Source: Octopus vulgaris (taxonomy: Eukaryota). From it: DNA of 64,000 nt. The notes below the pieces were generated by a model. The model saw nothing but the letters and a program-made list of their open reading frames with translations, did not search any database and was not told the origin of the DNA. The stretch covers positions 50,158,001 through 50,222,000 of the forward strand of contig OX597826.1 of the NCBI GenBank assembly GCA_951406725.2, given 5' to 3'. Both the position numbers and the translations under genes were made by a program. Shown here piece after piece: positions 639-48,297 of this stretch; position 1 is the first letter of the stretch; the number at the start of each line of letters is the position of its first letter.

Positions 639-801
639 ACATATATTCGACGGGCTTCTTTCAGTTTCTGTCTACCAAATCCACTCACAAGGCTTTGGTC
701 GGCCCGAGACTATAGTAGAAGACATTTGCCCAAGGTACCACGCAGTGGGACTGAACCCGGAACCATGTGGTTTGTAAGCAAGCTACTTACCACACAGCCA
801 C
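343..801 (-). mobile_element. tRNA-derived SINE family A copy with internal (TA)n/(TG)n microsatellite
   Basis: Reverse complement of the family consensus seen at 26652-27070: A box TGGCTGTGTGG, B box GGTTCAGTCCC, CORE-like ACCTTGGGCAA, tail GCGGTGCTCTAGCATGACCACAGTCAAATGACTGAAAC. Confidence 0.9.
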
Positions 802-1351
802 TGGACTGTGACCATATTGGGGCACCCCTTGAAGGCTTTTAGTAAAACGAATCAACTCGCGTATTTATTTTTTTTTAATCTGGCACTTATTTTATCGGTC
901 CTTTATACCGATCCGCTCTGTTACAGGAACATGAACAAACCTACACCGGTTATCCGAATTTACTGAGCTCTAAATGACTGCAAAAACCTTATAACAAATA
1001 TCTTCTGGTCAACTGGACCCGTTCTCTTTATATCCTATTCTCACTCAGCTCGTCTCTTATTTTCACTCACCTCGTCTGTTAATACCGCTTTCCTTGTCTC
1101 CTAACCCCTCCTCGTTTCTTAATCCGGCTCCCTTCATTTCTTAATCTCGAACCAAGAAATACATTGGCACCGCGTATATACACACCTACAACCACACTGA
1201 AATCTATGGTATTAATACATACTGCAATAAATACAGTGTACGAGGGGGATATTGTGTTGTAGAGACATATATTTGACACTATATTGTTGTGTTACATAAT
1301 AGTATATCTTTACTATGGTGGCGGTGTTGAATAGTGTGATGTATAATGTAC

Positions 1352-1671
1352 AGTAGTGGCTTAGTGGCTGGGGGTATTCAGCTCACGATCGTAAGGTCGT
1401 GAGTTCGATTCTCGGTGGTACGTTATGTCCTTGAGCAAAACGCTTTATTTCATGTTGCTTCAATCCACTCAGCTAGCAAAAAGGAGTTGTACCTGTAATT
1501 CAAAAGGGTCAACCTTGTCACACTCTATATCATGCTGAATCTCCCTGAGTACTACATTAAGGATACTCGTGTCTGAGGAGTACTCAGTCACTTGCATGTT
1601 AATTTCATGAGCAGACTGTTCTGTTGATAGGGTCAACTGGAACCCGCGTCCTCGTAACCGATGGAGTGCCA
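1352..1671 (+). mobile_element. tRNA-derived SINE family C (older)
   Basis: A box TGGCTTAGTGG, B box GAGTTCGATTC, then TGTCCTTGAGCAA; colinear along its length with 59157-59460. Confidence 0.7.
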
Positions 1672-6099: not shown

Positions 6100-6430
6100 A
6101 AATTGCCGTCCTAATCTAGGCACAACCGAAAAACCTAGACAAGATCCCTGGATAGATAGACCCAAACTGCAGCCACCCACACTTGATGGAGGCGAGCAGA
6201 ACTCTTTTACTCTGTTACTCTTTTACTTGTTTCAGTCATTTGACTGCGGCCATGCTGGAGCACCGCCTTTAGTCGAGCAAATCGACCCCGGGACTTATTC
6301 TTTGTAAGCCCAGTACTTATTCTATCAGTCTCTTTTGCCGATCCGCTAAGTGACGGGGACGTAAACACACCAGCATCGGTTGTCAAGCAATGCTAGGGGG
6401 ACAAACCCAGACACACAAACACACAGACAT

Positions 6431-6473
<43 letters not shown>

Positions 6474-7680
6474 CGACAGGCTTCTTTCAGTTTCCGTCTA
6501 CCAAATCCACTCACAAGGCATTGGTCGGCCCGGGGCAATAGCAGAGGACACTTGCCCAAGATGCCACGCAGTGGGACTGAACCCGGAACCATGTGGTTGG
6601 TTAGCAAGCTACTTGCCATACAGCCACTCCTGCGCCTATGGTTAAGAAGGTTAAGTTTCCACATATGTGGTAGCAACAACCACTTGTTGTGGTGTTCTGT
6701 CCACAACAGGAGCTGAGGCAACATGAACCTACATTTCCCCAACACCATGAATACAAAAATAACAGCAGCATCAATAAAAACAACAACGATAACTGCTAGC
6801 ACCACACACGTATCGATAAACAGGAGAGAAGTTTCGACGACTTGGAAGCTAAGGGGATATCTCCCTCCCCTTTAAAAAAAACAAAACAACTACTTAAATA
6901 ACATCCAAATACACGAACCAGGCTTTTCTCTCATTACCCCCACTCCAACGTCTTTGAATCCACGTCAGATGATGAAGAGGAGGAGAACAGGTTTGGTTTC
7001 GATCTCGTTTTCTGTGGTTAGATCGCTTCAGCGCACACATTTGTTTGCAGGTCAAACATAATGACCACTTAATGGAATTGTTTCAACCCGCTCCCCACCA
7101 CTACCACCATCAAGAGTGTTCTCTCTCATCGTTTGCTTTTTTTTTATGTTTTTGCTCTTGCACCATTGCTTCAGAAGGTAGAGATATTGAGGGATATCCT
7201 GTCTCAACTTGAACAGGGTAAAGCTGTGTCGACATACACGGCGAGGTCACCGGAATGGCGTCGAACACTAAAGAAATTAAGATGGTCGTCACCAAACAGG
7301 TGGAAGACGGGAAGGAGAGACAGGAATGCGCATCATCCCGAACAACTCGATGAACTTAGTCTCGTATCTTAAGAGACTGAGGGTACTGTTAAGATGCTTG
7401 GATTCCGATTTTCAAGTGGGAAGGAATTAGGTCGAGGTTACGAGAAGAGTAATCAAGTCTTATTTGAAGATAGGCTTAAAGGAACATAACCTAGAGAGAT
7501 TGAGAAGGAGAGGCGAATCGCCCCCATTAATTAATACTGATTGATCGTCTTGTGTTGCCCCAGTTTTCATGTGGCCAAACTGGAGCATCTGATTTTCCAC
7601 TTCTTGGAGAAAAGACGCGTTCCACTGGTACGAACCTCCGTCTCTTGTCTCTGCATCATCAACTACAGTATATTAAGTTT
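6100..7680 (+). mobile_element. Old, heavily decayed Tx1/L1-like LINE (possible ORF1 zinc knuckle plus RT fragment), interrupted by SINE-A
   Basis: 7110-7250 encodes QECSLSS..YVFALAPLLQKVEILRDI..AVSTYT, homologous to QGCPLSSLLFVLALEPLLQKMEAL..VSAYADD of the element at 24167-24511; ~6655-6710 reads HICGSNNHL..(frameshift)FCPQ, like a CCHC knuckle. Confidence 0.55.
6201..6638 (-). mobile_element. SINE family A, full length
   Basis: Complete head-to-tail match to the family consensus. Confidence 0.92.
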
Positions 7681-10778: not shown

Positions 10779-11070
10779 TGTTTGTATATGTATAGGTTTG
10801 GTAGAACAAACAGTACAAATAGAATTTTTCGAAAAACATTTGTATATGCTTTCTCTGCCATTAAAAATATATAAAAATATATATCTATACACACACATAT
10901 ATGTGGGTGTGTACATGCATGTAAAAGTATATATACACACATAGAGACAAACACACATATATATATATATATATAGTTAATCCCCCCACACACACACACA
11001 CAAAAAAACGAAGAAAAAGCAACGCGAAGACGTGGTACATGCAAAGCATTAGCAGACGCTCAGGGAATAC

Positions 11071-11145
<75 letters not shown>

Positions 11146-11465
11146 CATACATACATACATACATACATACATACATACATACATACATACATGCACGTAT
11201 ATCTATACATACATACATAACGATGAATAGCTTTGCGTAAACCATGGTTCGTTTTGTTTTCTTACTTAATTATCATCTTATAATCATCTCATAATAATGA
11301 CTTTTATGACTCGTATTACTACCTTAGTCAATCTAAATGTATATATTTGTCGTTACCTGTCATAAATAGCCTTCTTCTATTTGCAATGTGCATTTTCGTT
11401 GATTTTTCATATTTTACCCTTACATTTCCACGTGTATTTTATATTTTCTTTTCGTAAAATTTTTC

Positions 11466-11506
<41 letters not shown>

Positions 11507-11519
11507 TTATATCTGCATT

Positions 11520-11800
11520 TGATTAGGAAATTATCTACAGCTTAGATATAAGTCCTGTAAGTTTCTCATTAGTCCTCCATAGATATTCCTTACCCAAATT
11601 TTTTAAGACAGTCGCATCCGCTGTACAGCTGATTTCGACAACGATGCATAACTGTTGCTCATTTTTCCATACACCAATATCTGGCGTGGTGTACTAATAT
11701 ATCAGGGTGCTGTTGCTATTGGAATGTCTCGTCTCCCTTCTCTGTTGAGACTCTCGCCTTCGGCTTCCTGCAATCGTACCCGCTCTATACGTGTTTTCGG
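11520..11800 (-). mobile_element. RLE-type non-LTR retrotransposon fragment (restriction-like endonuclease, Dong/R4- or NeSL-like); duplicated at ~18380-18660
   Basis: Minus strand reads TPDIGVWKNEQQLCIVVEISCTADATVLK...(frameshift)LMRNLQDLY, matching the RLE PD..E..CP.D motif. Confidence 0.7.
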
Positions 11801-11810
11801 TGGCATATTT

Positions 11811-12205
11811 ACTCCTTTACTCTTTTACTTGGTTCAGTCATTTGACTGCGGCCATGCTGGAGCACCGCCTTTAATCGAGCAACTCGACCCTGGGACTTAT
11901 TCTTTTGTAAGCCCAGTACTTATTCTATCGGTCTCTTTTGCCGAACCGCTAAGTAACGGGGACATAAACACACCAGCATCGGTTGTCAAGCAATGCTAGT
12001 GGGACAAACACACACACACACACATACATATACATATATACGACAGGCTTCTTTCAGTTTCCGTCTACCAAATCCACTCACAAGGCATTGGTCGACCCGG
12101 GGCTATAGCAGAAGACACTTGCTCAAGATGCCACGCAGTGGGACTGAACCCGGAACCATGTGGTTGGTTAACAAGCTACTTACCACACAGCCACTCCTGC
12201 GCCTA
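11811..12205 (-). mobile_element. SINE family A, full length (duplicated at 18671-19065)
   Basis: Consensus match. Confidence 0.92.
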
Positions 12206-12757
12206 TTTGCCCAAAATTGTAAACAAAAAATTATGAAGATAGAAAAAACATACATTAATCTCTATTTTTGTAAGCATTTGTATGTATATAGCATGTCTGT
12301 ATTTTTGTATGCAGTGTAAATTAACGAAATATAAGCAAATGAACGAAATAGCACATGTATGGAACTGCTAATTTAACGGTAAATGCCACAATAATTATTA
12401 TAGACAGACAAAGAATTTTATATTTTACCTTGCAACCTTGCAACTGCTGCGATAATTAAACTAGTAATGGAACAGTAAATGTGTATTGTTTTAAAGGAAA
12501 TAAAATAAAATTTCGTACTGACTCTGGCCAACTTGCACTTCACGCTTGTCAGTTGTTAGGTATGTATGTGTAGACGTGTGTGTGTGTGTGTTTAATAATG
12601 TACCGCATATAGTATGTCTATATTTTTGCATGCAGTGTAAATTATTACAAAAAAAAATTACATGCAACACTCCTGGGGTCTCATAGTATTACCATGTAAA
12701 ATTTAATTTGATTTGGTCGAACCGTTTTAGAAAACATTGGGAACAGAGATACAAAGG

Positions 12758-12820
<63 letters not shown>

Positions 12821-12840
12821 GGATATACATACATATACAT

Positions 12841-12896
<56 letters not shown>

Positions 12897-12920
12897 GTAT
12901 ATAGATATATATATATATAT

Positions 12921-13265
12921 ACTCTTTTACTTGTTTCAGTCATTTGACTGTGGCCATGCTGGAGCACTGCCTTTAGTCGACCAAATCGAACCCAGGACTT
13001 ATTCTTTGTAAGCCTAGTACTTATTCTATCGGTCTCTTTTGCCGAACCGCTAAGTTACGGGGACGTAAACACACCAGCATCGGTTGTCAAGCGATGTTGG
13101 GGGGGACAAACACAGACACACACATACATACATACATACATACATACATACATACATACATACATACATACATACATTCATACATACATACATACATACA
13201 TACATACATACATACATACATACATACATACATACATACATCAGTTTCCGTCTACCATATCCACA
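12921..13265 (-). mobile_element. SINE family A, 5'-truncated, with (TACA)n core (duplicated at ~19786-20130)
   Basis: Tail and middle match the consensus. Confidence 0.85.
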
Positions 13266-13611
13266 CATGGATATGTAGTACTTGATATATTACAGAACAG
13301 GTGTAGAGGTCAGAGATAGAACGCCTTCTGTTAGGGCTCTGCTCCATTAGGGTTGAACTCGGAGTTAAACAACAATGAAGACATGTATGCTACCATTTCT
13401 ATTTTGTTTTTATTTTTGTTCTTGTGTTTTTGTTTGTTTTGTTTTTGTTTCAGAACGGTTTTTTTTTTGTTTTTTGTTTTTTTGAAAAATTGATCATTTC
13501 TAACGTATCCTTATAGAGGATTGATGATTAAGCATTAAAAAATATATACTCAATAAATAACATGTTTATTACATCTGGAGTAAATCCAGAAGAAACTAAC
13601 TTGCATGTATC

Positions 13612-13807
13612 TTTTATCTTTTACTTGTTTCAATCAGTAGTCTGCGGCCATGCTGGGGCGCCCGCTGCCTTGAAGAATTTTTAGTCGAACAAATCGATCC
13701 CTCGTATTCTTTTTTTAGAGTCTAGTACTTATTGTATCGGTCTCTTTTAGACGAACCGTTAACAATAGTGGAAGACAAACACAAACACAAACACACACAC
13801 ACGCATA

Positions 13808-13849
<42 letters not shown>

Positions 13850-14280
13850 CATATATATATATATACGCATTGAGTCGAACCAGGGGCAGCAGATGAAGGG
13901 GAATTTTCCTTGTATTGTTTGTCCTGTACTCTGTTTTTTCGTTGTTAAAAAAAAGTCCGTTTCCTTATTTGATTTTATGTTTTCGTTTCTCGTTGTGTTC
14001 TACGTTTATTTGTGGCGTCCTGTACTCATATATGCATGTATATATACATATAGATGTAACTATGTACATTTATGTATGTATATATATGTATATGTTTTAT
14101 TTATTATATATATATATATATATAAACGATGGGCTTGCCTACGAATTCCTCTCACAAGGCGTTTGTCAGCCCGGGGCTGTAGTTAAAAACACCTGCCTAG
14201 CGTGCCATGTAATGGAACTGAACTCAGAACCATGTGGTTCGGAAGGAAACTTCTTACCACACAACCACGCTTGCACCTAA
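13612..14280 (-). mobile_element. Older SINE-A variant split by a fold-back-family arm fragment (~13885-14040); duplicated at ~20477-21145
   Basis: Diverged tail at 13612-13780 and head at 14125-14280; the insert begins CAGATGAAGGGG and resembles 32556-32694. Confidence 0.6.
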
Positions 14281-14564
14281 TATGTACATGATTGACTAAA
14301 ACGATCTTAAAGCGTTACATATTTGGCATGGAAACAAATTTCACATATAGTTCATACTTTAATTGTACTTAACAGCTGTTTCCTGAAGATAAACATCACT
14401 AAGTTTATAATTACATAATTGTGATGCGTAATTAATTTAAATGCTGTGTTTATCCAAATCCTAAAGAATGTTATGTAATATATATATATATGCGTATTAT
14501 ATAAATATAAGTATGTGTGTGTGTACTTCATGTATATGTTGAGCTAGCTAACTCGCTAGGTGGT

Positions 14565-14662
<98 letters not shown>

Positions 14663-14690
14663 TGGTAATTAAAAGCTCATTAATAACAAG

Positions 14691-14936
14691 ACGTTAGAAA
14701 TAACCTACAATCTTGGTGTGTTGCAAAAATCGGTTTTACTTGCAACTGCACGCATGCTGCGTAAAATACTCTCCGCCTGAGGTCCCCGTTGTGGTTTGAC
14801 ACAATACACGCAATATCTTCGATCTACATCACAGTATTGGACACTGTGAAACGTCTTCAATGATGATGATGATGAAATGGCGGTGCCCCAGCATGGCCAC
14901 AGCTCATGAGCTGAAACTAAAATCAATCAATCAATC
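14691..14936 (+). mobile_element. Dong/R4-like RLE LINE 3' end (C-terminus, 3' UTR, (AATC)n tail); duplicated at ~21556-21801
   Basis: Frame from 14691 reads TLEITYNLGVLQKSVLLATARMLRKILSA* (stop 14778-14780), the R4/Dong C-terminal LQK.VLLGTA.ILR motif; the 3' UTR ends in a SINE-A-like tail. Confidence 0.75.
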
Positions 14937-15012
14937 ATACGAAATAGCCCGGCTATAGAAAATGAAGAAGGTGAAGATAGTGCTAGTTATTGTTGGGTCC
15001 TTGGTGGTGGTG

Positions 15013-15072
<60 letters not shown>

Positions 15073-15435
15073 ATAGTAGTAGGCAGCAGCAGCAGTAGCA
15101 GCATCAGTTCTACTACAACTATATCTCTAAACAATAAGAATGTTTATAAACAAGTAAACAACAGAATTAGGATTGTTAATTTTAACAGCCAAATCTCAAT
15201 GGAACAGTATAGAGTTACAACATTTATCATTGAGTCAAGATGTATGTAAAATGAGACTTTTTTTTTCTGTCACGTGACTTCATTGTTAAGTTACGGCTAC
15301 CACATTTCACGTCCCCTATCTCAGATCAATTCCGTATGTTTTGATAACAACATTATCAGAACACTTGTCCATTTTCATATATAAGATATTGTGACTAAAA
15401 GATATTGTGATATTTGGAAATATCTCCTTCTCTCC

Positions 15436-15488
<53 letters not shown>

Positions 15489-15582
15489 AGCACACACATA
15501 TATACAATTATTTATGCATACACACGCATATTTAAGCGTATGTTTGTATTTATATGTATACTATAATCGACTTCGTTGTGTG

Positions 15583-15629
<47 letters not shown>

Positions 15630-15700
15630 TGTATGTATGTATATATATATATATACACACACATTGTATGTATGTATATACATATATATATATATATATA

Positions 15701-15764
<64 letters not shown>

Positions 15765-15853
15765 CGTTTTTGGTTTTGGTTTGCAAGATTCTTTATGTCA
15801 ATTCGTGTGTTGAAGCATATTTTATTGTGTCTGGGAAGAGTCATTCTCTTTTT

Positions 15854-16025
15854 GTGCCTTATTATATAACACACTCACCGGTTCGAATTCCACTCATTCA
15901 CTTATTTATTTTTCCTAAAATTTTCGTTGCGTCTTGCAACCTTTTCAAAAGTCGGTGAGCTCTGATAACGGACAGGGTCAACGACTGAGTGGAAATCGAA
16001 CCGGTGAGTGTGTTAAATAAGGCAC
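15854..16025. mobile_element. ~170-bp fold-back element with ~40-bp inverted repeats (duplicated at ~22709-22880)
   Basis: GTGCCTTATTATATAACACACTCACCGGTTCGAATTCCACTCA versus TGAGTGGAAATCGAACCGGTGAGTGTGTTAAATAAGGCAC. Confidence 0.75.
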
Positions 16026-17592
16026 TTTTTTTGTTTTTGTTTTTTCGCCATGAAAGTTTGAATACAGAGGAGACAATACAGGACAGACAAATATGGGGTC
16101 GCATAAAGATATGGGGGTAAAAATTAGATGGAAATCGATGGATAATGAGTATGGAGAATAAGATGAAGTTAGAGACGTGAGGACCCAACAAGCCACGTAC
16201 CTTCACTGGACTTTTTGGAAGCCTGGGTGTTCGCGCTCAAGTTGACTCGTTCATTCGTATCAAGCGCGCCACTTCCTCCCTCTTGCTGCAAATTTACGCG
16301 GTGATCTATTATACCAAGGCTGGAGAGAAAAATGCCTGTTGCGATTACTCTCACACGTGTCAGCCATATGACCTCCTTCGCTGTAGCCACAAAGTTCCGT
16401 CTTTCCTTGTTGAGAAAAGACGGTGGAACAATCTTGATAATGGACTCGGTTGATAGCTGTACTCTTCCCGTGCATGACAGCAGGTGTTCGACATTAACCC
16501 ATAGCTCTGATATCCGTGGGCACTGCACAATCGCGTACAGAACAGTTTCACTGCTCTACTCGCATCTCGGCGTGGTGGAACTACCGTGTCTGAAGAGTTT
16601 ATCTCGAACGGGCAATCCCCTCGGTATCACTACCAGGCTAAGGATTTCTGCTAGTTGTCCATAGGCCCTGACCCGAAAGTCTTCCGGAACAGTATGGCAA
16701 ATTGACCATCATCGAAACCCAGGACGACATCACACTTGCCCGCTACTAACCCTCTATAGAAAGACGAGGTGGAACCCCGCTGCTCGCTTTGCTCGTTTGG
16801 GAGAGAAACAAGAGGGCCTGACGGCACTCTGCTTGCCAAGTACCCAACCTAGGTCTACGCCTGATCCACGGGTTCAGCTAACTAAAGGAGGTGAACTGTG
16901 GAAAAACAAGTTCAACGAATGGCGACCACACCTGCACGCCATCTAGGTAAAGCGAGAGGTGTCTCAGCTTCAGCGCATGCCTGCGCATCTTTAACCAAGG
17001 CTTCCCCAGCCCCCCATTTAGTGGCAGTTGACAGCAGATAGAACGTCTGACCAGTGGTTTCCTGCCCCTCCACAAAAAGCAGAAGAGCAGGCGTCCCAGC
17101 TTGAGCAGCCATGAATCCGAGCAAGGCACAACGGTTAGGCGGTAGGTGATGACAGATGCGATAAACACATTTTCCACCTCCGCCCTCCCTTTCAAAGACA
17201 GCTTTCTCTCAGCCCATTTCTAGGTGAGATTGGCTACTCTGCTCGTAACCTCGTCCCAGTTTCTCTCTATCTGGAGATCTGGTTCAAACTAGACCCAATC
17301 CGTCCGTTCAACGTCCCACGACGTTCTTGGGCGGCATCGGCCTGCCTCTCCAGGTGCCGTGTAGCAGGTCGACTGTCTTATCCTGGTTTATTTTTGCTCT
17401 CGTCACCACTTTGTAATCTTTCATGGCACCACCTACTTGTTGCAGGTGCGTGTCACTGGATACGATGACGGTGATGTCGTCCGCATACGCTGACACTGTC
17501 CTTCCGCACCCTAGATTATGCGGGATGCCACTCAGAGCCTCCATTTTCTGTAGTAATGGCTCCAGGGCCAGAACAAACAGAAGGGAGGAGAG
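16026..17592 (-). mobile_element. Tx1/L1-like LINE 3' half (copy in the duplicated segment, cut by the gap)
   Basis: LSSLLFVLALEPLL, AYADDITV, GGLG and C-terminal QCPRISELW; A-rich tail at 16026-16045. Confidence 0.85.
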
Positions 17593-17692
17593 NNNNNNNN
17601 NNNNNNNNNNNNNNNNNNNNNNNNNNNNNNNNNNNNNNNNNNNNNNNNNNNNNNNNNNNNNNNNNNNNNNNNNNNNNNNNNNNNNNNNNNNN
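17593..17692. other. Assembly gap (100 N)
   Basis: Run of exactly 100 N. Confidence 0.99.
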
Positions 17693-17930
17693 AAAACATT
17701 TGTATATGCTTTCTCTGCCATTAAAAATATATAAAAATATATATCTATACACACACATATATGTGGGTGTGTACATGCATGTAAAAGTATATATACACAC
17801 ATAGAGACAAACACACATATATATATATATATATAGTTAATCCCCCCACACACACACACACAAAAAAACGAAGAAAAAGCAACGCGAAGACGTGGTACAT
17901 GCAAAGCATTAGCAGACGCTCAGGGAATAC

Positions 17931-18005
<75 letters not shown>

Positions 18006-18325
18006 CATACATACATACATACATACATACATACATACATACATACATACATGCACGTATATCTATACATACATACATAACGATGAATAGCTTTGCGTAA
18101 ACCATGGTTCGTTTTGTTTTCTTACTTAATTATCATCTTATAATCATCTCATAATAATGACTTTTATGACTCGTATTACTACCTTAGTCAATCTAAATGT
18201 ATATATTTGTCGTTACCTGTCATAAATAGCCTTCTTCTATTTGCAATGTGCATTTTCGTTGATTTTTCATATTTTACCCTTACATTTCCACGTGTATTTT
18301 ATATTTTCTTTTCGTAAAATTTTTC

Positions 18326-18366
<41 letters not shown>

Positions 18367-19618
18367 TTATATCTGCATTTGATTAGGAAATTATCTACAG
18401 CTTAGATATAAGTCCTGTAAGTTTCTCATTAGTCCTCCATAGATATTCCTTACCCAAATTTTTTAAGACAGTCGCATCCGCTGTACAGCTGATTTCGACA
18501 ACGATGCATAACTGTTGCTCATTTTTCCATACACCAATATCTGGCGTGGTGTACTAATATATCAGGGTGCTGTTGCTATTGGAATGTCTCGTCTCCCTTC
18601 TCTGTTGAGACTCTCGCCTTCGGCTTCCTGCAATCGTACCCGCTCTATACGTGTTTTCGGTGGCATATTTACTCCTTTACTCTTTTACTTGGTTCAGTCA
18701 TTTGACTGCGGCCATGCTGGAGCACCGCCTTTAATCGAGCAACTCGACCCTGGGACTTATTCTTTTGTAAGCCCAGTACTTATTCTATCGGTCTCTTTTG
18801 CCGAACCGCTAAGTAACGGGGACATAAACACACCAGCATCGGTTGTCAAGCAATGCTAGTGGGACAAACACACACACACACACATACATATACATATATA
18901 CGACAGGCTTCTTTCAGTTTCCGTCTACCAAATCCACTCACAAGGCATTGGTCGACCCGGGGCTATAGCAGAAGACACTTGCTCAAGATGCCACGCAGTG
19001 GGACTGAACCCGGAACCATGTGGTTGGTTAGCAAGCTACTTACCACACAGCCACTCCTGCGCCTATTTGCTCAAAATTGCAAACAAAAAATTATGAAGAT
19101 AGAAAAAAACATACATTAATCTCTATTTTTGTAAGCATTTGTATGTATATAGCATGTCTGTATTTTTGTATGCAGAGTAAATTAACGAAATATAAGCAAA
19201 TGAACGAAATAGCACATGTATGGAACTGCTAATTTAACGGTAAATGCCACAATAATTATTATAGACAGACAAAGAATTTTATATTTTACCTTGCAACCTT
19301 GCAACTGCTGCGATAATTAAACTAGTAATGGAACAGTAAATGTGTATTGTTTTAAAGGAAATAAAATAAAATTTCGTACTGACTCTGGCCAACTTGCACT
19401 TCACGCTTGTCAGTTGTTAGGTATGTATGTGTAGACGTGTGTGTGTGTGTGTTTAATAATGTACCGCATATAGTATGTCTATATTTTTGCATGCAGTGTA
19501 AATTATTACAAAAAAAAATTACATGCAACACTCCTGGGGTCTCATAGTATTACCATGTAAAATTTAATTTGATTTGGTCGAACCGTTTTAGAAAACATTG
19601 GGAACAGAGATACAAAGG

Positions 19619-19685
<67 letters not shown>

Positions 19686-19703
19686 GGATATACATACATA
19701 TAC

Positions 19704-19761
<58 letters not shown>

Positions 19762-20672
19762 GTATATAGATATATATATATATATACTCTTTACTTGTTT
19801 CAGTCATTTGACTGTGGCCATGCTGGAGCACTGCCTTTAGTCGACCAAATCGAACCCAGGACTTATTCTTTGTAAGCCTAGTACTTATTCTATCGGTCTC
19901 TTTTGCCGAACCGCTAAGTTACGGGGACGTAAACACACCAGCATCGGTTGTCAAGCGATGTTGGGGGGGACAAACACAGACACACACATACATACATACA
20001 TACATACATACATACATACATACATACATACATACATACATTCATACATACATACATACATACATACATACATACATACATACATACATACATACATACA
20101 TACATCAGTTTCCTGTCTACCATATCCACACATGGATATGTAGTACTTGATATATTACAGAACAGGTGTAGAGGTCAGAGATAGAACGCCTTCTGTTAGG
20201 GCTCTGCTCCATTAGGGTTGAACTCGGAGTTAAACAACAATGAAGACATGTATGCTACCATTTCTATTTTGTTTTTATTTTTGTTCTTGTGTTTTTGTTT
20301 GTTTTGTTTTTGTTTCAGAACGGTTTTTTTTTTGTTTTTTGTTTTTTTGAAAAATTGATCATTTCTAACGTATCCTTATAGAGGATTGATGATTAAGCAT
20401 TAAAAAATATATACTCAATAAATAACATGTTTATTACATCTGGAGTAAATCCAGAAGAAACTAACTTGCATGTATCTTTTATCTTTTACTTGTTTCAATC
20501 AGTAGTCTGCGGCCATGCTGGGGCGCCCGCTGCCTTGAAGAATTTTTAGTCGAACAAATCGATCCCTCGTATTCTTTTTTTAGAGTCTAGTACTTATTGT
20601 ATCGGTCTCTTTTAGACGAACCGTTAACAATAGTGGAAGACAAACACAAACACAAACACACACACACGCATA

Positions 20673-20714
<42 letters not shown>

Positions 20715-21429
20715 CATATATATATATATACGCATTGAGTCGAACCAGGGGCAGCAGATGAAGGGGAATTTTCCTTGTATTGTTTGTCCTGTACTCTGTT
20801 TTTTCGTTGTTAAAAAAAAGTCCGTTTCCTTATTTGATTTTATGTTTTCGTTTCTCGTTGTGTTCTACGTTTATTTGTGGCGTCCTGTACTCATATATGC
20901 ATGTATATATACATATAGATGTAACTATGTACATTTATGTATGTATATATATGTATATGTTTTATTTATTATATATATATATATATATAAACGATGGGCT
21001 TGCCTACGAATTCCTCTCACAAGGCGTTTGTCAGCCCGGGGCTGTAGTTAAAAACACCTGCCTAGCGTGCCATGTAATGGAACTGAACTCAGAACCATGT
21101 GGTTCGGAAGGAAACTTCTTACCACACAACCACGCTTGCACCTAATATGTACATGATTGACTAAAACGATCTTAAAGCGTTACATATTTGGCATGGAAAC
21201 AAATTTCACATATAGTTCATACTTTAATTGTACTTAACAGCTGTTTCCTGAAGATAAACATCACTAAGTTTATAATTACATAATTGTGATGCGTAATTAA
21301 TTTAAATGCTGTGTTTATCCAAATCCTAAAGAATGTTATGTAATATATATATATATGCGTATTATATAAATATAAGTATGTGTGTGTGTACTTCATGTAT
21401 ATGTTGAGCTAGCTAACTCGCTAGGTGGT

Positions 21430-21527
<98 letters not shown>

Positions 21528-21877
21528 TGGTAATTAAAAGCTCATTAATAACAAGACGTTAGAAATAACCTACAATCTTGGTGTGTTGCAAAAATCGGTT
21601 TTACTTGCAACTGCACGCATGCTGCGTAAAATACTCTCCGCCTGAGGTCCCCGTTGTGGTTTGACACAATACACGCAATATCTTCGATCTACATCACAGT
21701 ATTGGACACTGTGAAACGTCTTCAATGATGATGATGATGAAATGGCGGTGCCCCAGCATGGCCACAGCTCATGAGCTGAAACTAAAATCAATCAATCAAT
21801 CATACGAAATAGCCCGGCTATAGAAAATGAAGAAGGTGAAGATAGTGCTAGTTATTGTTGGGTCCTTGGTGGTGGTG

Positions 21878-21937
<60 letters not shown>

Positions 21938-22300
21938 ATAGTAGTAGGCAGCAGCAGCAGTAGCAGCATCAGTTCTACTACAACTATATCTCTAAACAAT
22001 AAGAATGTTTATAAACAAGTAAACAACAGAATTAGGATTGTTAATTTTAACAGCCAAATCTCAATGGAACAGTATAGAGTTACAACATTTATCATTGAGT
22101 CAAGATGTATGTAAAATGAGACTTTTTTTTTCTGTCACGTGACTTCATTGTTAAGTTACGGCTACCACATTTCACGTCCCCTATCTCAGATCAATTCCGT
22201 ATGTTTTGATAACAACATTATCAGAACACTTGTCCATTTTCATATATAAGATATTGTGACTAAAAGATATTGTGATATTTGGAAATATCTCCTTCTCTCC

Positions 22301-22351
<51 letters not shown>

Positions 22352-22445
22352 AGCACACACATATATACAATTATTTATGCATACACACGCATATTTAAGC
22401 GTATGTTTGTATTTATATGTATACTATAATCGACTTCGTTGTGTG

Positions 22446-22490
<45 letters not shown>

Positions 22491-22561
22491 TGTATGTATG
22501 TATATATATATATATACACACACATTGTATGTATGTATATACATATATATATATATATATA

Positions 22562-22619
<58 letters not shown>

Positions 22620-24451
22620 CGTTTTTGGTTTTGGTTTGCAAGATTCTTTATGTCAATTCGTGTGTTGAAGCATATTTTATTGTGTCTGGGAAGAGTCATT
22701 CTCTTTTTGTGCCTTATTATATAACACACTCACCGGTTCGAATTCCACTCATTCACTTATTTATTTTTCCTAAAATTTTCGTTGCGTCTTGCAACCTTTT
22801 CAAAAGTCGGTGAGCTCTGATAACGGACAGGGTCAACGACTGAGTGGAAATCGAACCGGTGAGTGTGTTAAATAAGGCACTTTTTTTTTTGTTTTTGTTT
22901 TTTCGCCATGAAAGTTTGAATACAGAGGAGACAATACAGGACAGACAAATATGGGGTCGCATAAAGATATGGGGGTAAAAATTAGATGGAAATCGATGGA
23001 TAATGAGTATGGAGAATAAGATGAAGTTAGAGACGTGAGGACCCAACAAGCCACGTACCTTCACTGGACTTTTTGGAAGCCTGGGTGTTCGCGCTCAAGT
23101 TGACTCGTTCATTCGTATCAAGCGCGCCACTTCCTCCCTCTTGCTGCAAATTTACGCGGTGATCTATTATACCAAGGCTGGAGAGAAAAATGCCTGTTGC
23201 GATTACTCTCACACGTGTCAGCCATACGACCTCCTTCGCTATAGCCACAAAGTTCCGTCTTTCCTTGTTGAGAAAAGACGGTGGAACAATCTTGATAATG
23301 GACTCGGTTGATAGCTGTACTCTTCCCGTGCATGACAGCAGGTGTTCGACATTAACCCATAGCTCTGATATCCGTGGGCACTGCACAATCGCGTACAGAA
23401 CAGTTTCACTGCTCTACTCGCATCTCGGCGTGGTGGAACTACCGTGTCTGAAGAGTTTATCTCGAACGGGCAATCCCCTCGGTATCACTACCAGGCTAAG
23501 GATTTCTGCTAGTTGTCCATAGGCCCTGACCCGAAAGTCTTCCGGAACAGTATGGCAAATTGACCATCATCGAAACCCAGGACGACATCACACTTGCCCG
23601 CTACTAACCCTCTATAGAAAGACGAGGTGGAACCCCCGCTGCTCGCTTTGCTCGTTTGGGAGAGAAACAAGAGGGCCTGACGGCACTCTGCTTGCCAAGT
23701 ACCCAACCTAGGTCTACGCCTGATCCACGGGTTCAGCTAACTAAAGGAGGTGAACTGTGGAAAAACAAGTTCAACGAATGGCGACCACACCTGCACGCCA
23801 TCTAGGTAAAGCGAGAGGTGTCTCAGCTTCAGCGCATGCCTGCGCATCTTTAACCAAGGCTTCCCCAGCCCCCCATTTAGTGGCAGTTGACAGCAGATAG
23901 AACGTCTGACCAGTGGTTTCCTGCCCCTCCACAAAAAGCAGAAGAGCAGGCGTCCCAGCTTGAGCAGCCATGAATCCGAGCAAGGCACAACGGTTAGGCG
24001 GTAGGTGATGACAGATGCGATAAACACATTTTCCACCTCCGCCCTCCCTTTCAAAGACAGCTTTCTCTCAGCCCATTTCTAGGTGAGATTGGCTACTCTG
24101 CTCGTAACCTCGTCCCAGTTTCTCTCTATCTGGAGATCTGGTTCAAACTAGACCCAATCCGTCCGTTCAACGTCCCACGACGTTCTTGGGCGGCATCGGC
24201 CTGCCTCTCCAGGTGCCGTGTAGCAGGTCGACTGTCTTATCCTGGTTTATTTTTGCTCTCGTCACCACTTTGTAATCTTTCATGGCACCACCTACTTGTT
24301 GCAGGTGCGTGTCACTGGATACGATGACGGTGATGTCGTCCGCATATGCTGACACTGTCCTTCCGCACCCTAGATTATGCGGGATGCCACTCAGAGCCTC
24401 CATTTTCTGTAGTAATGGCTCCAGGGCCAGAACAAACAGAAGGGAGGAGAG
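17693..24451 (+). repeat. Copy 2 of the ~6.76-kb duplication
   Basis: Begins AAAACATTTGTATATGC (=10833) and matches through AGGGAGGAGAG (=17592). Confidence 0.95.
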
Positions 24452-25687
24452 CGGACATCCTTGGCGAACCAAACGCTTAATGGAGAACAGCTCTGAACGA
24501 AATCCGTTCACCCGAGCGACTGACTGAATGTTGCTGTAAAGAGCGATATACTTTGGCTAAAATCTTCAGCTCTACGTTGAGCAGAGTGACGGGCTTGAAA
24601 TTATCTAAGGAGTCCCCCTTTTTTGGATCCTTTCTTAGCAGCACCATGACTCCCTGGCTTACAGAACTAGGAATGCTCCCATTCTGCTGTCAGTTAGCCT
24701 AAATGCTACTAATAGGTGTCCAAACAAGTCTGGCATGTTGTAATAAAATTCGTAGCGTAGACCATCTATCCCCGGCGACTTGTCCCCGACGCAGCCCGAT
24801 AGGGCCTCTTCCTCCTCCGCAGCTGTGATCGACTCTTCACAGCACTCCGCTTCTCGGCTCGAGAGTCGCAGCATGTTGGATGCACTGCCTGCCCTCATTG
24901 CCTCTTCTAATGACCTGACTAATTTCCTTTCTACTCTATTTTTCTTAAGAACTACATCTTTGCTGAACCTAAATGACTCAAATTTTATGGCTCTTTTGAG
25001 AGTGTACCAACAGTTAAAATGGTGCTTGTTAACACCCTCTGGACTAACTTCCTAATCCGGTTATTGTAAGCATTACAGGCTAGGAGTGATTTGTTTAGCT
25101 TCCATTAACCGGAGTCCAGGCTAGGAAAGCCAGCTAAGTCTACCCTACAGGTCACGAATTTGTGATCTGTGTAGGTAACAATACTGAATTGTGGACAACT
25201 AAAACTATTGTTGTCAGTTACTCTAATAACTACCCTGTCTAAGAATACCTAGAAGACCCGTCGCTATTAGCCCATATCCACGTTGGATATGGGATAATAG
25301 TAATCCAATCTATATCGTCAGCCAGCTGGAAGCAACGGATCAGATATGTGAGACAAGAGTTCCCCTTTCTATTAGAATTTGAGCCAACACAATCTACACG
25401 CGTATCTAAGACTGTGTTAAAGTCAACTATTACGACTAAAGTGTGTGACGTTCCCAGGAAGTTCTCTAGTTGTCTGAAGTAGTCAGACTGTCCAGTTGCA
25501 CATGGTGCATAGACAGCTGTCACTCTGAAGGCATTGCAGCTGTTATACGACACGTCAAAGACGCCCAGTCTGCCCTCCGGGTCCACAACGATTGTTCTAA
25601 TCTCTAAATCCAAAATTTTTCCTGAATAAGACCGCAATTCCCCACCCATTCCCACCCTCAAACGGGCATGGGGAATTTGTATTTCTC

Positions 25688-26397
<710 letters not shown>

Positions 26398-26651: not shown

Positions 26652-27070
26652 TAGGCGTAGGAGTGGCTGTGTGGTAAGTAGCTTGCTTACCAACCTCATG
26701 GTTCCGGGTTCAGTCCCACTGCGTGGCACCTTGTGTAAGTGTCTTCTACTATAGCCTCGGGCCGACCAAAGCCTTATGAGTGGATTTGGTAGATGGAAAC
26801 TGAAAGAAGCCCGTCGTATATATGTATGTATATATATGTGAGTGTGTGTGTGTGTGAGTGTATATGTTTGGTCCCCCAACATCACTTGACAACCGATGCT
26901 GGTGTGTTTACGTCCCCGTAACTTAGCGGTTCGGCAAAAGAGATCGATAGAATAAGTACTAGGCTTACAAAGAATAAGTCCTGGGGTCGATTTGCTCGAC
27001 TAAAAGCGGTGCTCCAGCATAGCCACAGTCAAATGACTGAAACAAGTAAAAGAGTAAAAGAGTAAAGAGT
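26652..27070 (+). mobile_element. SINE family A, full length (reference copy)
   Basis: AGGCGTAGGAGTGGCTGTGTGG (A box) ... GGTTCAGTCCC (B box) ... microsatellite ... GCGGTGCTCCAGCATAGCCACAGTCAAATGACTGAAAC + (AGTAAAAG)n tail. Confidence 0.93.
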
Positions 27071-28898
27071 AAGATTTTATTGTTTTACCGTCAAGTTTAT
27101 TATTTTACACACAAACTATTAACAAAAATTATATAAAACTTTTCTTTATACTTAATTCTTTTTAGATCCAATTTTTCAAAATATTTCAAAGAAAAATTTA
27201 ATCATTCTTACGAACCAAGTTCTTATGAAATATATGTAATGTATCTCATAAAATTGTATTTGTTAAATGCCATTTTCAACTCATTTCTTTTAAAGTACTG
27301 TCAATTTTGACGGTGTAGTTTGACGCGCATATGCCCTCACTCTCTCCCCCCTTCTCTCTCTCACAGACATTATATATCAAACATATATAGATACATGCAC
27401 ATCATACACATATATATGTACATATGCATATATATGTGCACACTCACACATACGCACGCACACACACACAAACATTTACAATTTAGCACATTCAGCCTCT
27501 AAGTTTCTTTCAGTTAAACTGTCTAATACACAAAAACTTTAAATACACGAAGAAAAATAGATTCATCAACGAAAACTGTGTCGATTAAATTCAAGAAAAT
27601 CCACCTTAGGTGTCCCATGCAATAGAACGAATATTTCTTTCTGTAAGGGACAACGATGGCTAGCAAATTTTCTTTGACAAACGTGAACAGAATCTAAGCA
27701 ACATTTCATTTTCAAATATGGATTTAAGTCAACAAATACATACAAAAAGTCTACTTTTACTTTAAAATCTTCAAATTTAAATTTTTTTTTTAATACAGTA
27801 TTTCAAAATATATTAACGTGAAATAAAAAAAAAAGATGCCTGGTAAAGATATCCATTTAATCAGATAATCCAAAGAGCTTTTATCGAATTGACAACAACA
27901 CCTATTGCAGAGCTTTAATAAGATTATCCTCCTCGAGCTAAATTTTACTTCAGTCATACATAGTAGCGAAATATTGTTTGAGCTACTCACAACTAAATAA
28001 ACCTTATTTTACTCTGAAGAACCATAAAGTTAGTCTTTACCATAAATTTTGTATTCGATTAATCAACCTCACGAAAACAGATATAGAAGCGATTAAGAAA
28101 CATTTACTCGACAAAATTAATCTTACCTTTATGGAATAACACCTAAGCAGAAACTGAATTGTTCAAATTAATCAGGAATAAGAATAGAACTAATTTTTTG
28201 CAGTTAATTAACGCGTTTAATTTCGCAATACCCATTAGCAATAACACTAACTCTTAAATAGACATTATACTACATGCAAGTAATTGCTAGTAAATTATAA
28301 CGATTTTATAGTATTTCGGGATGGTCATTTTTTTTCTTTTGCCAAATAAACACACGCACTATATATATTTTTTCTTCACTCATTTATTATTGTTCTTAAA
28401 CGATTTTACTTAGATCAAAAAACATTCTAGCATTCTGTTTGACGTAATCATAGAAGCTAATGATTCAACTGAAATCAATGATAATATTGGTCTTTATTTA
28501 GTGAACCATCTAAAAACCAAATTCTCTCATACTGAAGAGGGCATATATAGAAGAAGATGGTTTTTGACTCTTGCCTCTCAATAACGAATCAACTCCATAA
28601 CTTAATTTTAAGTTTGATACTTATGCTGTAGGTATCTTTTTGGTGAACCGCCAAGTTACGAATATGTAAACAAACCAAAACCTCTCGACATTTTCCAAAA
28701 TTGAGTAGCAAATACACATGCGTACCCATACATATATGTGCACATATATACATGAATATATATATACACATATACATATATACATATAATTATATGTGTA
28801 AATATATTTATAGTAATATGTTTGTATATGTGCGTGTGTGTATGTGTGTGCGTGTACGTATATGTATTTATGTATCTCTCTTTCCATTTCTCTTTCTT

Positions 28899-32905: not shown

Positions 32906-33341
32906 GTATAGATGTAAGTATGCACATATACATATATATGTATGTATATAGCTTCATAGGAGCTTCGAATATGAAATGCAATTTATTTAGAAAAGAACTA
33001 TATTCGTGTGAAGCTATAAGGTATTATTCAGGCACTCAACTCTAAATCCACTGCACCTTCTAGCAGAAATAGCAGTCGGCTAATGAAGTTCATAAGATAA
33101 TCATTAATTCTTGTGCCACCTCTCTTTCTTACTGTGAATACGTGCGCGCGCGACGGTCTTCTTTTAATTTACGTCAACCAAATCCACTCACAGGGCTTTG
33201 GTTGGACCGAGGCTTCAGCAGAAGATACCTGCCTAAGTGCCGCTTAGTGTGACTGAACCCGGATCCATGTGGTTGAGAAACAAGCTTCTTACCACCCACT
33301 CACGCCTATATATCAATATATCATATATTAAATATTATATG

Positions 33342-33586
33342 AGGCGGCGAGCTGGCAGAATCGTTAGCTCGCCGGGCGAAATGCGTAGCCGTATTTCGTC
33401 TGCCGTTACGTTCTGAGTTCAAATTCCGCCGAGGTCGACTTTGCCTTTCATCCTTTCAGGGTCGATTAAATAAGTACCAGTTATGCACTGGGGTCGATAT
33501 AATCGACTTAATTTGTTTGCCTGTCCTTGCTTGTCCCTTCTGTGTTTAGCCCCTTGTGGGTAGTAAAGAAATAGGTATTTCGTCTG
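33342..33586 (+). mobile_element. tRNA-derived SINE family B, full length (reference copy)
   Basis: GGCGGCGAGCTGGCAGAATCG (A box), internal hairpin CGAAATGC/GTATTTCG, GAGTTCAAATTC (B box), central GTCGACTTTGCCTTTCATCCTTTC.GGGTCGAT, tail AGCCCCTTGTGGGTAGTAAAGAAAT. Confidence 0.92.
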
Positions 33587-36539: not shown

Positions 36540-37208
36540 GGGAGGGGATTAATCGATTACATCAACCCCAGTACTTGACTGGTATTTTGTTCTATCGACC
36601 TCGAAAGGATGAAACGCAAAGTTGACCTCGGCAACATTTGAACTCAGAAAGTCAAAAGCCGGAAGAAATGCAGCGTAACATTTTCTTCGGCGTGTTAACG
36701 ATTCTGCCAGTTTGAGGTCCCTTTTTTTAAAATTATTAATCGCAGTTATAAATGTATTATAAACGGTTCGCCAATCCGTTTAATAATGTTTTCAAATTTT
36801 GGTACAAGGCCAGCAATTTTAGAGGAAGGATTAAGTCGATTACATCGACCATCTGTATTATTTTATCGACCCCGAAAGGATAAAAACTAAAGTCGACCTC
36901 GCCGGAATTTGAACCCGGAACGTGAACACGGACGAAATATCGCCAAGCATTTTTGCTTGGCGTGCTTAACGATTCTTATTTCTTTATTGCCCAAAAGAGG
37001 CTAAACACAGAGGGAACAAACAAGGACAGACAAAGAGATTAAGTCGATTACATCGACCCCAGTGCGTAACTGGTACTTAATTTATCGACCCCGAAAGGAT
37101 GAAAGGCAAAGTCGACCTCGGCGGAATTTGAACACAGAACGTAGCGGCAGACGAAATACGGCTACGCATTTCGCCCGGCGTGCTAACGGTTCTGCCAGCT
37201 CGCCGCCT
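36540..37208 (-). mobile_element. Cluster of three SINE-B copies; the best conserved is at 36976-37208
   Basis: Repeated ATCGACC(C/T)CGAAAGGAT...AAAGT(C/T)GACCTCG cores. Confidence 0.85.
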
Positions 37209-47737: not shown

Positions 47738-47777
<40 letters not shown>

Positions 47778-47778
<1 letters not shown>

Positions 47779-47969
47779 TTTTTTTTCTTCTTTCAAATTT
47801 GCTTCCATTTCTTGCCGAGTGTCTTCCCGACTCCTAGGGCAAAGAAACTCATAGTATACATTGGTAGGCCATTAAACCAAACTCAGTAGTTCGTTCATTT
47901 TTTTTATTTTTAAGTTAAATTAAAATACATGAGCAGCAACAGTTCTCACATCGACAATGCTCTTTTCAA

Positions 47970-47970
<1 letters not shown>
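47778..47970 (-). mobile_element. Dong/R4-like LINE extreme 3' end within (TAA)n
   Basis: Minus strand LKRALSM* followed by a 3' UTR homologous to 48027-48100 (CCCTAGG...ACACTCGGC.AGAAA.GGAAG.AAATTTGAA). Confidence 0.65.
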
Positions 47971-48026
<56 letters not shown>

Positions 48027-48296
48027 GTTTTTTCCTTCTTTCTTCAAATTTTCTTCCGTTTCTCGCCGAGTGTTTTCCATACACCTAGGGCAGAGACGGG
48101 CATTGTATGCATTCCAAGATTACACGCGCAAATTCACAGATAAAATATGCATTTAAAAATTAATAAATAAATAAATTCATGGATGGATGTTATTTTCACA
48201 GCGATAGTGCTCTTCTCAGTACATGAGCCGTTCCAGTTAATACGATTTTTTGCACTTCCTGTAGGGATGGTAAGCCTGGAATCATTTTCAAATAGG

Positions 48297-48297
<1 letters not shown>
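48027..48297 (-). mobile_element. Dong/R4-like LINE 3' end within (TAA)n
   Basis: Minus strand TYLKMIPGLPSLQEVQKIVLTGTAHVLRRALSL* (stop at 48196-48198); (TAA)n on both sides. Confidence 0.78.

What the first reader, a model, noticed from the sequence alone, without database searches (positions are those of the whole stretch)
14691..14936. Candidate partner LINE of SINE-A is a Dong/R4-like RLE element
Seen: after the Dong/R4-type C-terminus (LQKSVLLATARMLRKILSA*) the 3' UTR ends GGCGGTGCCCCAGCATGGCCACAGCTCATGAGCTGAAAC (14879-14917). SINE-A ends GGCGGTGCTCCAGCATGGCCGCAGTCAAATGACTGAAAC. The last hairpin keeps its structure but not its sequence (CAGCT-CATG-AGCTG versus CAGTC-AAAT-GACTG). Known: many SINEs share 3' stem-loop tails with the LINE that mobilises them; well-known partners are mostly AP-endonuclease LINEs (L2, CR1, RTE). 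Inference: the most abundant SINE here is mobilised by an RLE-clade LINE through a bipartite stem-loop. I cannot tell whether this pairing has already been reported.
Basis: partly seen in the sequence, partly recalled or inferred. Interest (0 to 1): 0.75.

Follow-up and report, generated by a model that had tools for sequence, protein, structure and literature searches.

The report
SINE tail behind Dong-like LINE end
A short broken piece of a jumping gene ends in the same small two-hairpin RNA tag as the commonest short repeat in this probably octopus sequence, which suggests, from one locus only, that the repeat borrows its copying enzyme from a LINE class rarely seen in that role.

Summary
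14690-14937(+) is a 5'-truncated ORF end, an 80-nt UTR, a (GAT)5 run, a 43-nt two-hairpin tail and (TCAA)n. The tail is 26-31 of 39 identical to 14 SINE-A tails. The second copy at 21555-21802 is an assembly overlap, so the pairing rests on one locus. R4/Dong identity is likely, not shown: no RT was reachable, but a homologous C-terminus lies between TAA arrays at 48026-48297. That canonical Dong family has a different 3' end with no SINE-A tail. Contigs from four organisms show the ORF end as a low-copy repeat and the tail at about 700-2900 times its depth, behind several other upstream sequences; no listed contig bridges UTR and tail. Best reading (0.55): the tail is the conserved 3' end of one RLE LINE lineage, and SINE-A (probably the OK SINE) is driven by a sister subfamily. 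Main rival (0.25): a separate tail fragment landed next to the LINE end. I found no animal tRNA-SINE/R4 pair in ten paper searches; Entamoeba R4 pairs are known.

The parts
14690..14780 (+). 5'-truncated C-terminal end of an RLE-type (R4/Dong-like) LINE ORF, with stop codon
   Evidence: Translation; 76% to P0001; tblastn of P0002 E 5e-6 within the window; dispersed repeat in 4 of 4 runs, listed pieces start at 14694-14710
14781..14859 (+). LINE 3' UTR with a 7-bp hairpin at 14829-14849
   Evidence: Fold; two ORF-to-UTR joints, each in one contig of 2 of 4 runs
14860..14874 (+). (GAT)5 run: internal to the UTR (best reading) or the true end of the LINE (rival)
14875..14917 (+). Two-hairpin tail shared with SINE-A: hairpin 1 at 14879-14898, hairpin 2 at 14900-14913
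14918..14937 (+). Terminal (TCAA)n repeats; SINE-A ends in a different A-rich unit
   Evidence: two contigs carry tail plus this end (X3 record 8, X8 record 23)
14938..14995 (+). Right flank: a different high-copy repeat that begins directly after the terminal repeats, with no GAT remnant
   Evidence: Loose ends before 14938 in 71-119 contigs per run
14560..14689 (+). Left flank: (GATA)n array, then 27 unassigned bases; no GAT run, and no target-site duplication longer than 4 nt
   Evidence: no cover at 14663-14686 in any of 4 runs
21555..21802 (+). Identical second copy inside the block duplicated across the N gap; not independent
26654..27072 (+). Representative full-length SINE-A: tRNA-like head with A- and B-box-like motifs, internal (TA)/(TG) microsatellite, 3' body, shared tail
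   Evidence: boxes read by eye; ARAGORN and Rfam give no hit
6201..6636 (-). Full-length SINE-A copy, 2.9% from the window consensus of the 3' half
48026..48297 (-). Comparison element: 3' end of a second, TAA-flanked Dong-type family (33-aa ORF end, 170-nt UTR) without the SINE-A tail
47778..47971 (-). Second, shorter copy of the TAA-type lineage stacked in the same TAA array; last 86 nt are 79% identical to the first copy

Best explanation
14690-14937 is one 5'-truncated insertion of a low-copy subfamily of an RLE-type LINE, most likely R4/Dong clade. Its 3' end is the two-hairpin tail plus short terminal repeats. The tail is the conserved RNA recognition module of this LINE lineage, whose UTRs otherwise diverge fast. 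SINE-A (tRNA-like head, probably the octopus OK SINE) took this module from the lineage. Its Pol III transcript would be bound at the two hairpins by the LINE protein and copied by target-primed reverse transcription at a nick made by the restriction-like endonuclease. The direct partner is a sister or ancestral subfamily with the SINE-type hairpin 2, not this subfamily. Shown: shared tail, limits of homology, fold, dispersed ORF end. Inferred: organism, clade, single insertion, protein-RNA recognition, direction LINE to SINE.
For: (1) 16 of 17 independent tail hits have SINE-A body upstream, read by eye; the one that does not is the only one with the other hairpin 2 and lies 95 nt behind an ORF stop on the same strand. 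Uniform chance is 0.09% for one ORF end, about 0.26% for three by my arithmetic; post hoc. (2) The next repeat starts directly after the terminal repeats, and there is no GAT remnant after the tail or before the ORF, whereas both TAA-type copies are flanked by their microsatellite on both sides. (3) The TAA-type pair shows the predicted pattern: ORF end kept, UTR middle diverged, last 86 nt kept at 79%. (4) The tail follows at least two other upstream sequences and has several terminal repeats (loose ends at 14875, 14876, 14917-14919), as expected of a module kept across subfamilies. (5) Both stems are kept. (6) In O. vulgaris Dong-R4 covers 92.7 Mb in 51 families and has the most recent LINE insertions, 1129 of 2533; SINEs and LINEs share an expansion peak (PMC13282606). 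(7) Ages are compatible: 11 of 14 SINE-A copies are 2.9-8.7% from consensus; 29 ORF pieces are 11.7% from the window copy pairwise, about 6% each, capped by the 85% filter.
Against: One locus only. No listed contig bridges UTR and tail, though only 32 of about 17,400 pieces and 24 of about 500 loose ends were shown. Tail depth is 670-2917 times the ORF-end depth, so stray tails are common; homology to the commonest other carrier starts exactly where the GAT run ends (14875). Same-strand stacking in a microsatellite is seen in this window (47739-48372). The TAA-type Dong family lacks the tail. One O. vulgaris transcript has a Dong2_FR match and ends in a (TGA)n run 183 nt later with no tail annotated; another Dong 3' end is followed by (AAT)n with no OK hit (PMC9115989 file 8); family identity of both is unknown and a 39-nt match could fall below the score cut-off. 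Hairpin plus short tandem terminal repeats is also typical of CR1/L2 (own knowledge), and CR1 covers 62 Mb in O. vulgaris. No tool placed the peptide in a clade. Counting any of 15 tails against 3 ORF ends the chance figure rises to 3.9%.
Confidence: 0.55

Rival explanations
1. Two insertions side by side. The Dong-like LINE ends at the GAT run (its terminal or target microsatellite), and a 63-nt 5'-truncated copy of another abundant retroposon landed there. SINE-A's partner is then that other element's LINE, possibly CR1 or L2.
For: Tail depth is 670-2917 times ORF-end depth. Homology to the commonest carrier begins exactly at 14875. Stacking in a microsatellite occurs at 47739-48372. A Dong-annotated transcript ends in (TGA)n. 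No bridging contig is listed.
Against: No GAT units after the tail or at the 5' junction, so the second insertion would have to hit the exact end of a 15-nt run on the same strand. No tail of this type occurs elsewhere in 57 kb, which holds 9 GAT runs of four or more units.
Confidence: 0.25
2. One insertion, but a chimera: reverse transcription began on a tail-bearing RNA and jumped to the LINE RNA, or this LINE subfamily captured the tail from a SINE or another LINE. Tail sharing would then not identify SINE-A's partner.
For: Explains a single target site together with low copy number; tail-bearing RNAs are abundant; one contig shows tandem tail pieces (table 5c). Template jumping by RLE reverse transcriptases is from my own knowledge, not read here.
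Against: No direct sign of a switch. Tail capture by a LINE is less usual than LINE-to-SINE transfer (PMC3747384, PMC4824008; passages).
Confidence: 0.1
3. The tail belongs to the LINE, but the LINE is another RLE clade (Hero, NeSL, CRE, R2), not R4/Dong.
For: Only 30 residues are present and no search placed them. Hero, CRE and R2 exist in O. vulgaris. The peptide shares only 10 of 18 core residues with the TAA-type copy and is not flanked by TAA.
Against: The same Q-K..L..TA..LR..L end is shared with the TAA-flanked copy, and TAA targeting is the published Dong hallmark (PMC3812793, PMC7998251). Dong-R4 is about 11 times more abundant than Hero.
Confidence: 0.1

Closest known systems
EhSINE1/EhLINE1, EdSINE1/R4-1_ED of Entamoeba (PMC3747384 Table 1; PMC2996970 passages)
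   Same: Short non-autonomous element sharing a short 3' end (about 70 bp) with an R4-type RLE LINE.
   Different: Protist; heads are of unknown origin and not tRNA-derived; clear target-site duplications. Here the SINE has a tRNA-like head, the host is probably an animal, the shared part is about 40 nt and no duplication is seen.
Stringent SINE/LINE pairs with a 3' stem-loop: UnaSINE1/UnaL2, BivaV-SINE2 and BivaCORE-SINE1 with CR1-14_CGi
   Same: tRNA head, unrelated body, LINE-derived stem-loop tail with kept pairing, short terminal repeats.
   Different: Those partners are AP-endonuclease LINEs; the candidate here is RLE-type, and the SINE and LINE tails are only 67-79% identical.
Octopus OK SINE (Ohshima and Okada 1994, seen only as a reference; Repbase entry seen through RepeatMasker rows in PMC9115989 file 8)
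   Same: 465-nt tRNA-Core entry, the most frequent of three octopus SINEs in that file (1067 hits against 286 and 163 term hits); many rows stop at position 198 or start near 247-254, which fits SINE-A's internal microsatellite.
   Different: No sequence comparison was possible, so SINE-A = OK is inferred. No partner LINE is named in what I read.
Dong, DongAg, DongBg and ostracod Dong (PMC3812793, PMC7998251; passages)
   Same: Homologous ORF end to a TAA-flanked copy in this window; heavy 5' truncation.
   Different: The finding's copy is not in TAA repeats and has another 3' end than the TAA-type family.
Chlamydomonas SINEX-5/6 with RandI/Dualen
   Same: tRNA-headed SINE paired with a LINE that carries an RLE.
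   Different: Dualen also has an AP endonuclease (title of the cited paper); green alga.

Membership tests
R4/Dong clade LINE | RT domain that groups with the R4 clade | not testable with these tools
   No genome held; no full-length relative found
R4/Dong clade LINE | C-terminal zinc knuckle and PD-D restriction-like endonuclease | not testable with these tools
   Only the last 30 codons are present
R4/Dong clade LINE | C-terminal helix motif at the ORF end | tested here: inconclusive
   Shared with P0001, P0002 and the TAA-flanked copy, but both proteins are unnamed; the clade label for the motif is recalled; Pfam, PDB, Atlas and fold searches are blank
R4/Dong clade LINE | Dispersed, 5'-truncated copies with a short 3' UTR | tested here: met
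   Many distinct contigs in 4 of 4 runs at about 12% divergence
Dong subgroup (TAA-specific) | Insertion in (TAA)n | tested here: not met
   Flanks are (GATA)n plus 27 nt and another repeat; met instead by 48026-48297 and 47778-47971
Stringent SINE/partner-LINE pair | Homologous 3' terminal sequence, homology limited to the tail | tested here: met
   26-31 of 39 identical; none upstream
Stringent SINE/partner-LINE pair | Conserved 3' stem-loop with compensatory changes | tested here: inconclusive
   92% of cells paired; 2 double-sided changes, both from one sequence; 26 of 500 shuffles reach it
Stringent SINE/partner-LINE pair | Tail is the regular 3' end of the LINE family | tested here: inconclusive
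   One locus; no bridging contig among those listed
Stringent SINE/partner-LINE pair | Overlapping age and shared insertion signature | tested here: inconclusive
   Divergences compatible; no duplication above 5 nt at 7 SINE-A copies with heads, none above 4 nt at the LINE
Stringent SINE/partner-LINE pair | Mobilisation in trans that needs the tail | not testable with these tools
   Needs a retrotransposition or primed reverse transcription assay
tRNA-derived SINE (SINE-A) | tRNA-related head with A and B boxes | tested here: inconclusive
   Box-like motifs seen by eye; ARAGORN and Rfam blank
Octopus OK SINE | Sequence identity to the OK consensus | not testable with these tools
   Only length and fragment pattern could be compared

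The most novel reading that the evidence does not exclude
The dominant tRNA-derived SINE of octopus genomes is mobilised by an RLE-only R4/Dong LINE lineage that has given up TAA specificity. The two-hairpin tail, carried by several very abundant families, is that lineage's RNA recognition signal. This would be an animal tRNA-SINE expansion on the order of 10^5 copies driven by a class of LINE usually regarded as site-specific and seldom paired with SINEs.
Probability: 0.5. Interest if true: 0.7.

Novelty: new variant of a known kind. Interest (0 to 1): 0.45.

Why it matters
SINEs make up 11.7% of the O. vulgaris genome, and three quarters of that is unclassified (PMC13282606 supplement). Their expansions are discussed as drivers of octopus genome reshuffling (PMC12988792), yet no partner LINE is named in what I read. 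Naming the partner would link SINE bursts to a specific enzyme. It would also extend animal tRNA-SINE partners beyond AP-endonuclease LINEs and give a compact 40-nt RNA element with which to test how RLE retrotransposon proteins choose their template. If the rival holds, this is an ordinary nested insertion.

Tried and rejected
Pfam: 0 families for the window peptide and P0001, one sub-threshold unrelated hit for P0002. PDB sequence searches: only chance hits or none. Atlas: no usable hit, then three unnamed clusters under 0.9. Protein searches for longer relatives: none among 5 and 201 candidates; near-length search gave P0001 and P0002. The predicted model was two helices with pTM 0.38, and its PDB fold search gave nothing at E 0.001; no weight given. 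DNA pattern scans of viral, metagenome and prokaryote collections: 0 hits. Related-locus scans: none, except L001 and L002, rejected as opposite-strand matches over a bacterial gene (L001 read; L002 assumed alike from its shared neighbourhood). Plasmids: no match. Sequencing runs: no RNA holder listed, best word share 0.18; not used as evidence on expression. No cover at 14663-14686; a hole proves nothing. Transcript FASTA in PMC9115989 could not be read (84 characters; two files too large; file 7 not searched); a tail motif was not found in the text that was searched. In PMC10294476, 12 of 33 supplements were searched without a sequence hit. Albertin 2015 is not held. Rejected: the copy at 21555 as replication (assembly overlap); similarity between the TAA-type UTR and the tail (scores 10-11, below the shuffle means); a TA target preference for SINE-A (5 of 7 listed 5' flanks end in TA, but the bases may belong to the SINE).

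Full report
Setting. The window is a microsatellite-rich, 38% GC eukaryotic sequence dense in SINEs. I take it to be an octopus from recalled features of its SINEs and from the fit to the OK SINE rows described below; no call named the organism. No whole genome is held.

Observation. The anatomy is: (GATA)n to 14662; 27 unassigned bases; ORF end 14690-14780; UTR 14781-14859 with a 7-bp hairpin; (GAT)5 at 14860-14874; tail 14875-14917; (TCAA)n to 14937; then another repeat. The tail pattern has 19 window hits against 0.00 expected. The block 10833-17592 is repeated at 17693-24451 at 99.57% across a 100-N gap, which is best read as an uncollapsed contig overlap. So there is one LINE-type tail and 14 SINE-A tails. 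A covariance model built from these 15 finds 21 hits at E up to 0.001, 4 of them in the duplicate; the two new ones (39485, 795) also sit behind SINE-A body. The LINE-type tail is 26-31 of 39 identical to the SINE-A tails, and nothing upstream is shared. Both fold into two hairpins. Hairpin 2 has two double-sided changes, but from one sequence only; 26 of 500 shuffles reach that count.

Is the ORF end R4/Dong? It is a real dispersed repeat: contigs from 4 of 4 runs, labelled as four organisms, cover 14694-14770 on many distinct records; the 29 listed ORF pieces (of 32 rows; 3 tail or flank rows left out) differ from the window copy by 11.7%. The majority variants V to A and A to G move it towards P0002. 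P0001 and P0002 are the only protein relatives found and both are unnamed. Pfam, PDB, Atlas and fold searches gave nothing. I recognise this C-terminus as R4/Dong from memory only. Independent support came from the window itself: tblastn with P0002 found a second C-terminus at 48264-48202 (E 0.017). It belongs to a 272-nt 5'-truncated element between two TAA arrays, followed by a second, shorter copy and a third TAA array. TAA targeting is the published mark of Dong (PMC3812793 and PMC7998251, passages). The two peptides share 10 of 18 core residues. R4-Dong is reported almost only in cephalopods among molluscs (PMC10294476, passage) and covers 92.7 Mb in O. vulgaris. I put RLE-type at about 0.9 and R4/Dong at about 0.8. 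The finding's copy is not a member of the TAA-specific subgroup.

Does the tail belong to the LINE? This is the open point. For: the only tail without SINE-A body, and the only one with the other hairpin 2, lies 95 nt behind a stop codon on the same strand (uniform chance 0.09% per ORF end; post hoc). No GAT units follow the tail or precede the ORF, and the next repeat starts right after the terminal repeats; in the stacked TAA example each element has its microsatellite on both sides. The TAA pair shows that such LINEs keep the ORF end and the last 86 nt (79%) while the UTR middle diverges. That is the pattern, where the tail follows at least two other upstream sequences (loose ends at 14875 in 47-80 contigs per run, and at 14876) and has several terminal repeats. 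Against: no listed contig bridges UTR and tail, although only a small part of the pieces was shown. Depth over hairpin 2 is 670-2917 times the ORF peak; contig depth is not a copy number and may include partly laid SINE-A tails, but the SINE-A-diagnostic changes at 14887 and 14899 are not listed at 5%, while a loop variant at 14906 holds about a third to nearly a half. So a very abundant family with this tail type exists whose upstream sequence differs from the window's UTR, and its homology starts exactly at the end of the GAT run. It may be a young sister LINE, a SINE, or an unrelated LINE; I could not tell. The TAA-type family has no such tail. In the RepeatMasker table of O. vulgaris transcripts (PMC9115989 file 8, cut when stored; 36 of 39 Dong-R4 places seen) one transcript has a match near the 3' end of Dong2_FR and ends in (TGA)n 183 nt later. 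By my rough calibration that is where the window's GAT run lies, which would support the Dong label and a family-wide GAT run, but it says nothing on what follows. No Dong-R4 3' match in the rows seen was followed by an OK tail hit. I give 0.65-0.7 to an intrinsic tail.

SINE-A. It has a tRNA-like head with box-like motifs, an internal microsatellite and the tail. 11 of 14 copies are 2.9-8.7% from the window consensus; three are 13.9-30.8%. No target-site duplication above 5 nt was found at 7 copies with heads, unlike another SINE in the window with a 16-nt direct repeat; this weakly argues against RTE or L1 as partner but fits CR1/L2 as well as RLE. The Repbase OK entry is 465 nt, is the most frequent octopus SINE in that table, and many of the 25 places seen stop at 198 or resume near 250, so SINE-A is probably OK; no sequence test was possible.

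Mechanism. Most likely the SINE transcript presents the two hairpins to the protein of an RLE LINE lineage, which nicks DNA and primes reverse transcription on it. Specific 3' recognition by R2 protein and by eel L2 is summarised in PMC3747384 (passages). Every step of this for SINE-A is inferred. Because hairpin 2 and the terminal repeat differ and this subfamily is rare, the direct partner is probably a relative.

What is known. Shared stem-loop tails are the standard SINE-LINE arrangement. In the part of Table 1 of PMC3747384 that I read (part 4 of 8, which lacks the first mammalian rows), animal pairs use RTE, CR1, L2, Rex1, I, Vingi or Crack; R4 partners occur only in Entamoeba with non-tRNA heads, and the whole text has no 'octopus' or 'Dong'. 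Ten paper searches returned no report of an octopus SINE paired with Dong/R4. The library lacks most subscription papers and Repbase Reports, and I recall, unverified, RepeatMasker class labels that pair SINEs with Dong-R4 and R2, so prior notice is possible. Seen: PMC13282606 main text parts 1-2 of 3 and its whole supplement; passages of PMC8967140, PMC4758252, PMC5786205, PMC3747384, PMC9115989, PMC10294476, PMC3812793, PMC7998251, PMC12988792, PMC4824008 and PMC2996970; Ohshima and Okada 1994, Akasaki 2010 and Albertin 2015 as reference entries only. Unread supplements (transcript FASTA of PMC9115989, 21 files of PMC10294476) and the Zenodo library could settle the question.

Verdict. Observation confirmed; interpretation partly supported. 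A plausible new variant of a known arrangement that rests on one locus and is quickly testable with an octopus assembly. Interest 0.45; 0.7 if confirmed.

Noticed in passing
window 47739-48372 (-): Two 5'-truncated copies of a TAA-type Dong lineage stacked head to tail between three TAA arrays; ORF ends kept, UTR middles unlike, last 86 nt 79% identical.
   Followed up: yes
window 10833-24451: 6.76-kb direct duplication at 99.57% on both sides of a 100-N gap; probably an assembly overlap artefact that doubles every feature in it.
   Followed up: yes
window about 23030-25740 (-), partial copy 16170-17590 (-): Decayed LINE with AP-endonuclease-like and RT-like frames, L1/Tx1-like by recalled motifs; no SINE-A tail hit at its 3' end.
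   Followed up: partly
window 41620-41943 (+): 108-aa frame that looks like a PIF1-type helicase piece of a Helitron (recalled motif; not searched).
   Followed up: no
window 53630-53900 (-); related copies 33140-33400, 36780-37209, 46810-47090, 56044-56391: A second abundant tRNA-like SINE family with a different 3' end; the 53630 copy is bracketed by a 16-nt (ATT)-rich direct repeat, so it probably has another partner LINE.
   Followed up: partly
window 1356-1645 and 59162-59433 (+): A third SINE-like family with a tRNA-like head, two copies, no shared tail.
   Followed up: no
loose ends before window 14875 and 14876: At least two unidentified high-copy families carry the same tail behind other upstream sequence; neither is in the window. 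Their identity would decide the finding.
   Followed up: partly
window 14938-14995 (+): High-copy repeat of unknown kind next to the element's 3' end; single occurrence in the window apart from the duplicate.
   Followed up: partly
window 795-829 (-) and 51590-51665 (+): SINE-A inserted into the tail of an older SINE-A copy, and a short tandem duplication of the SINE-A head.
   Followed up: no
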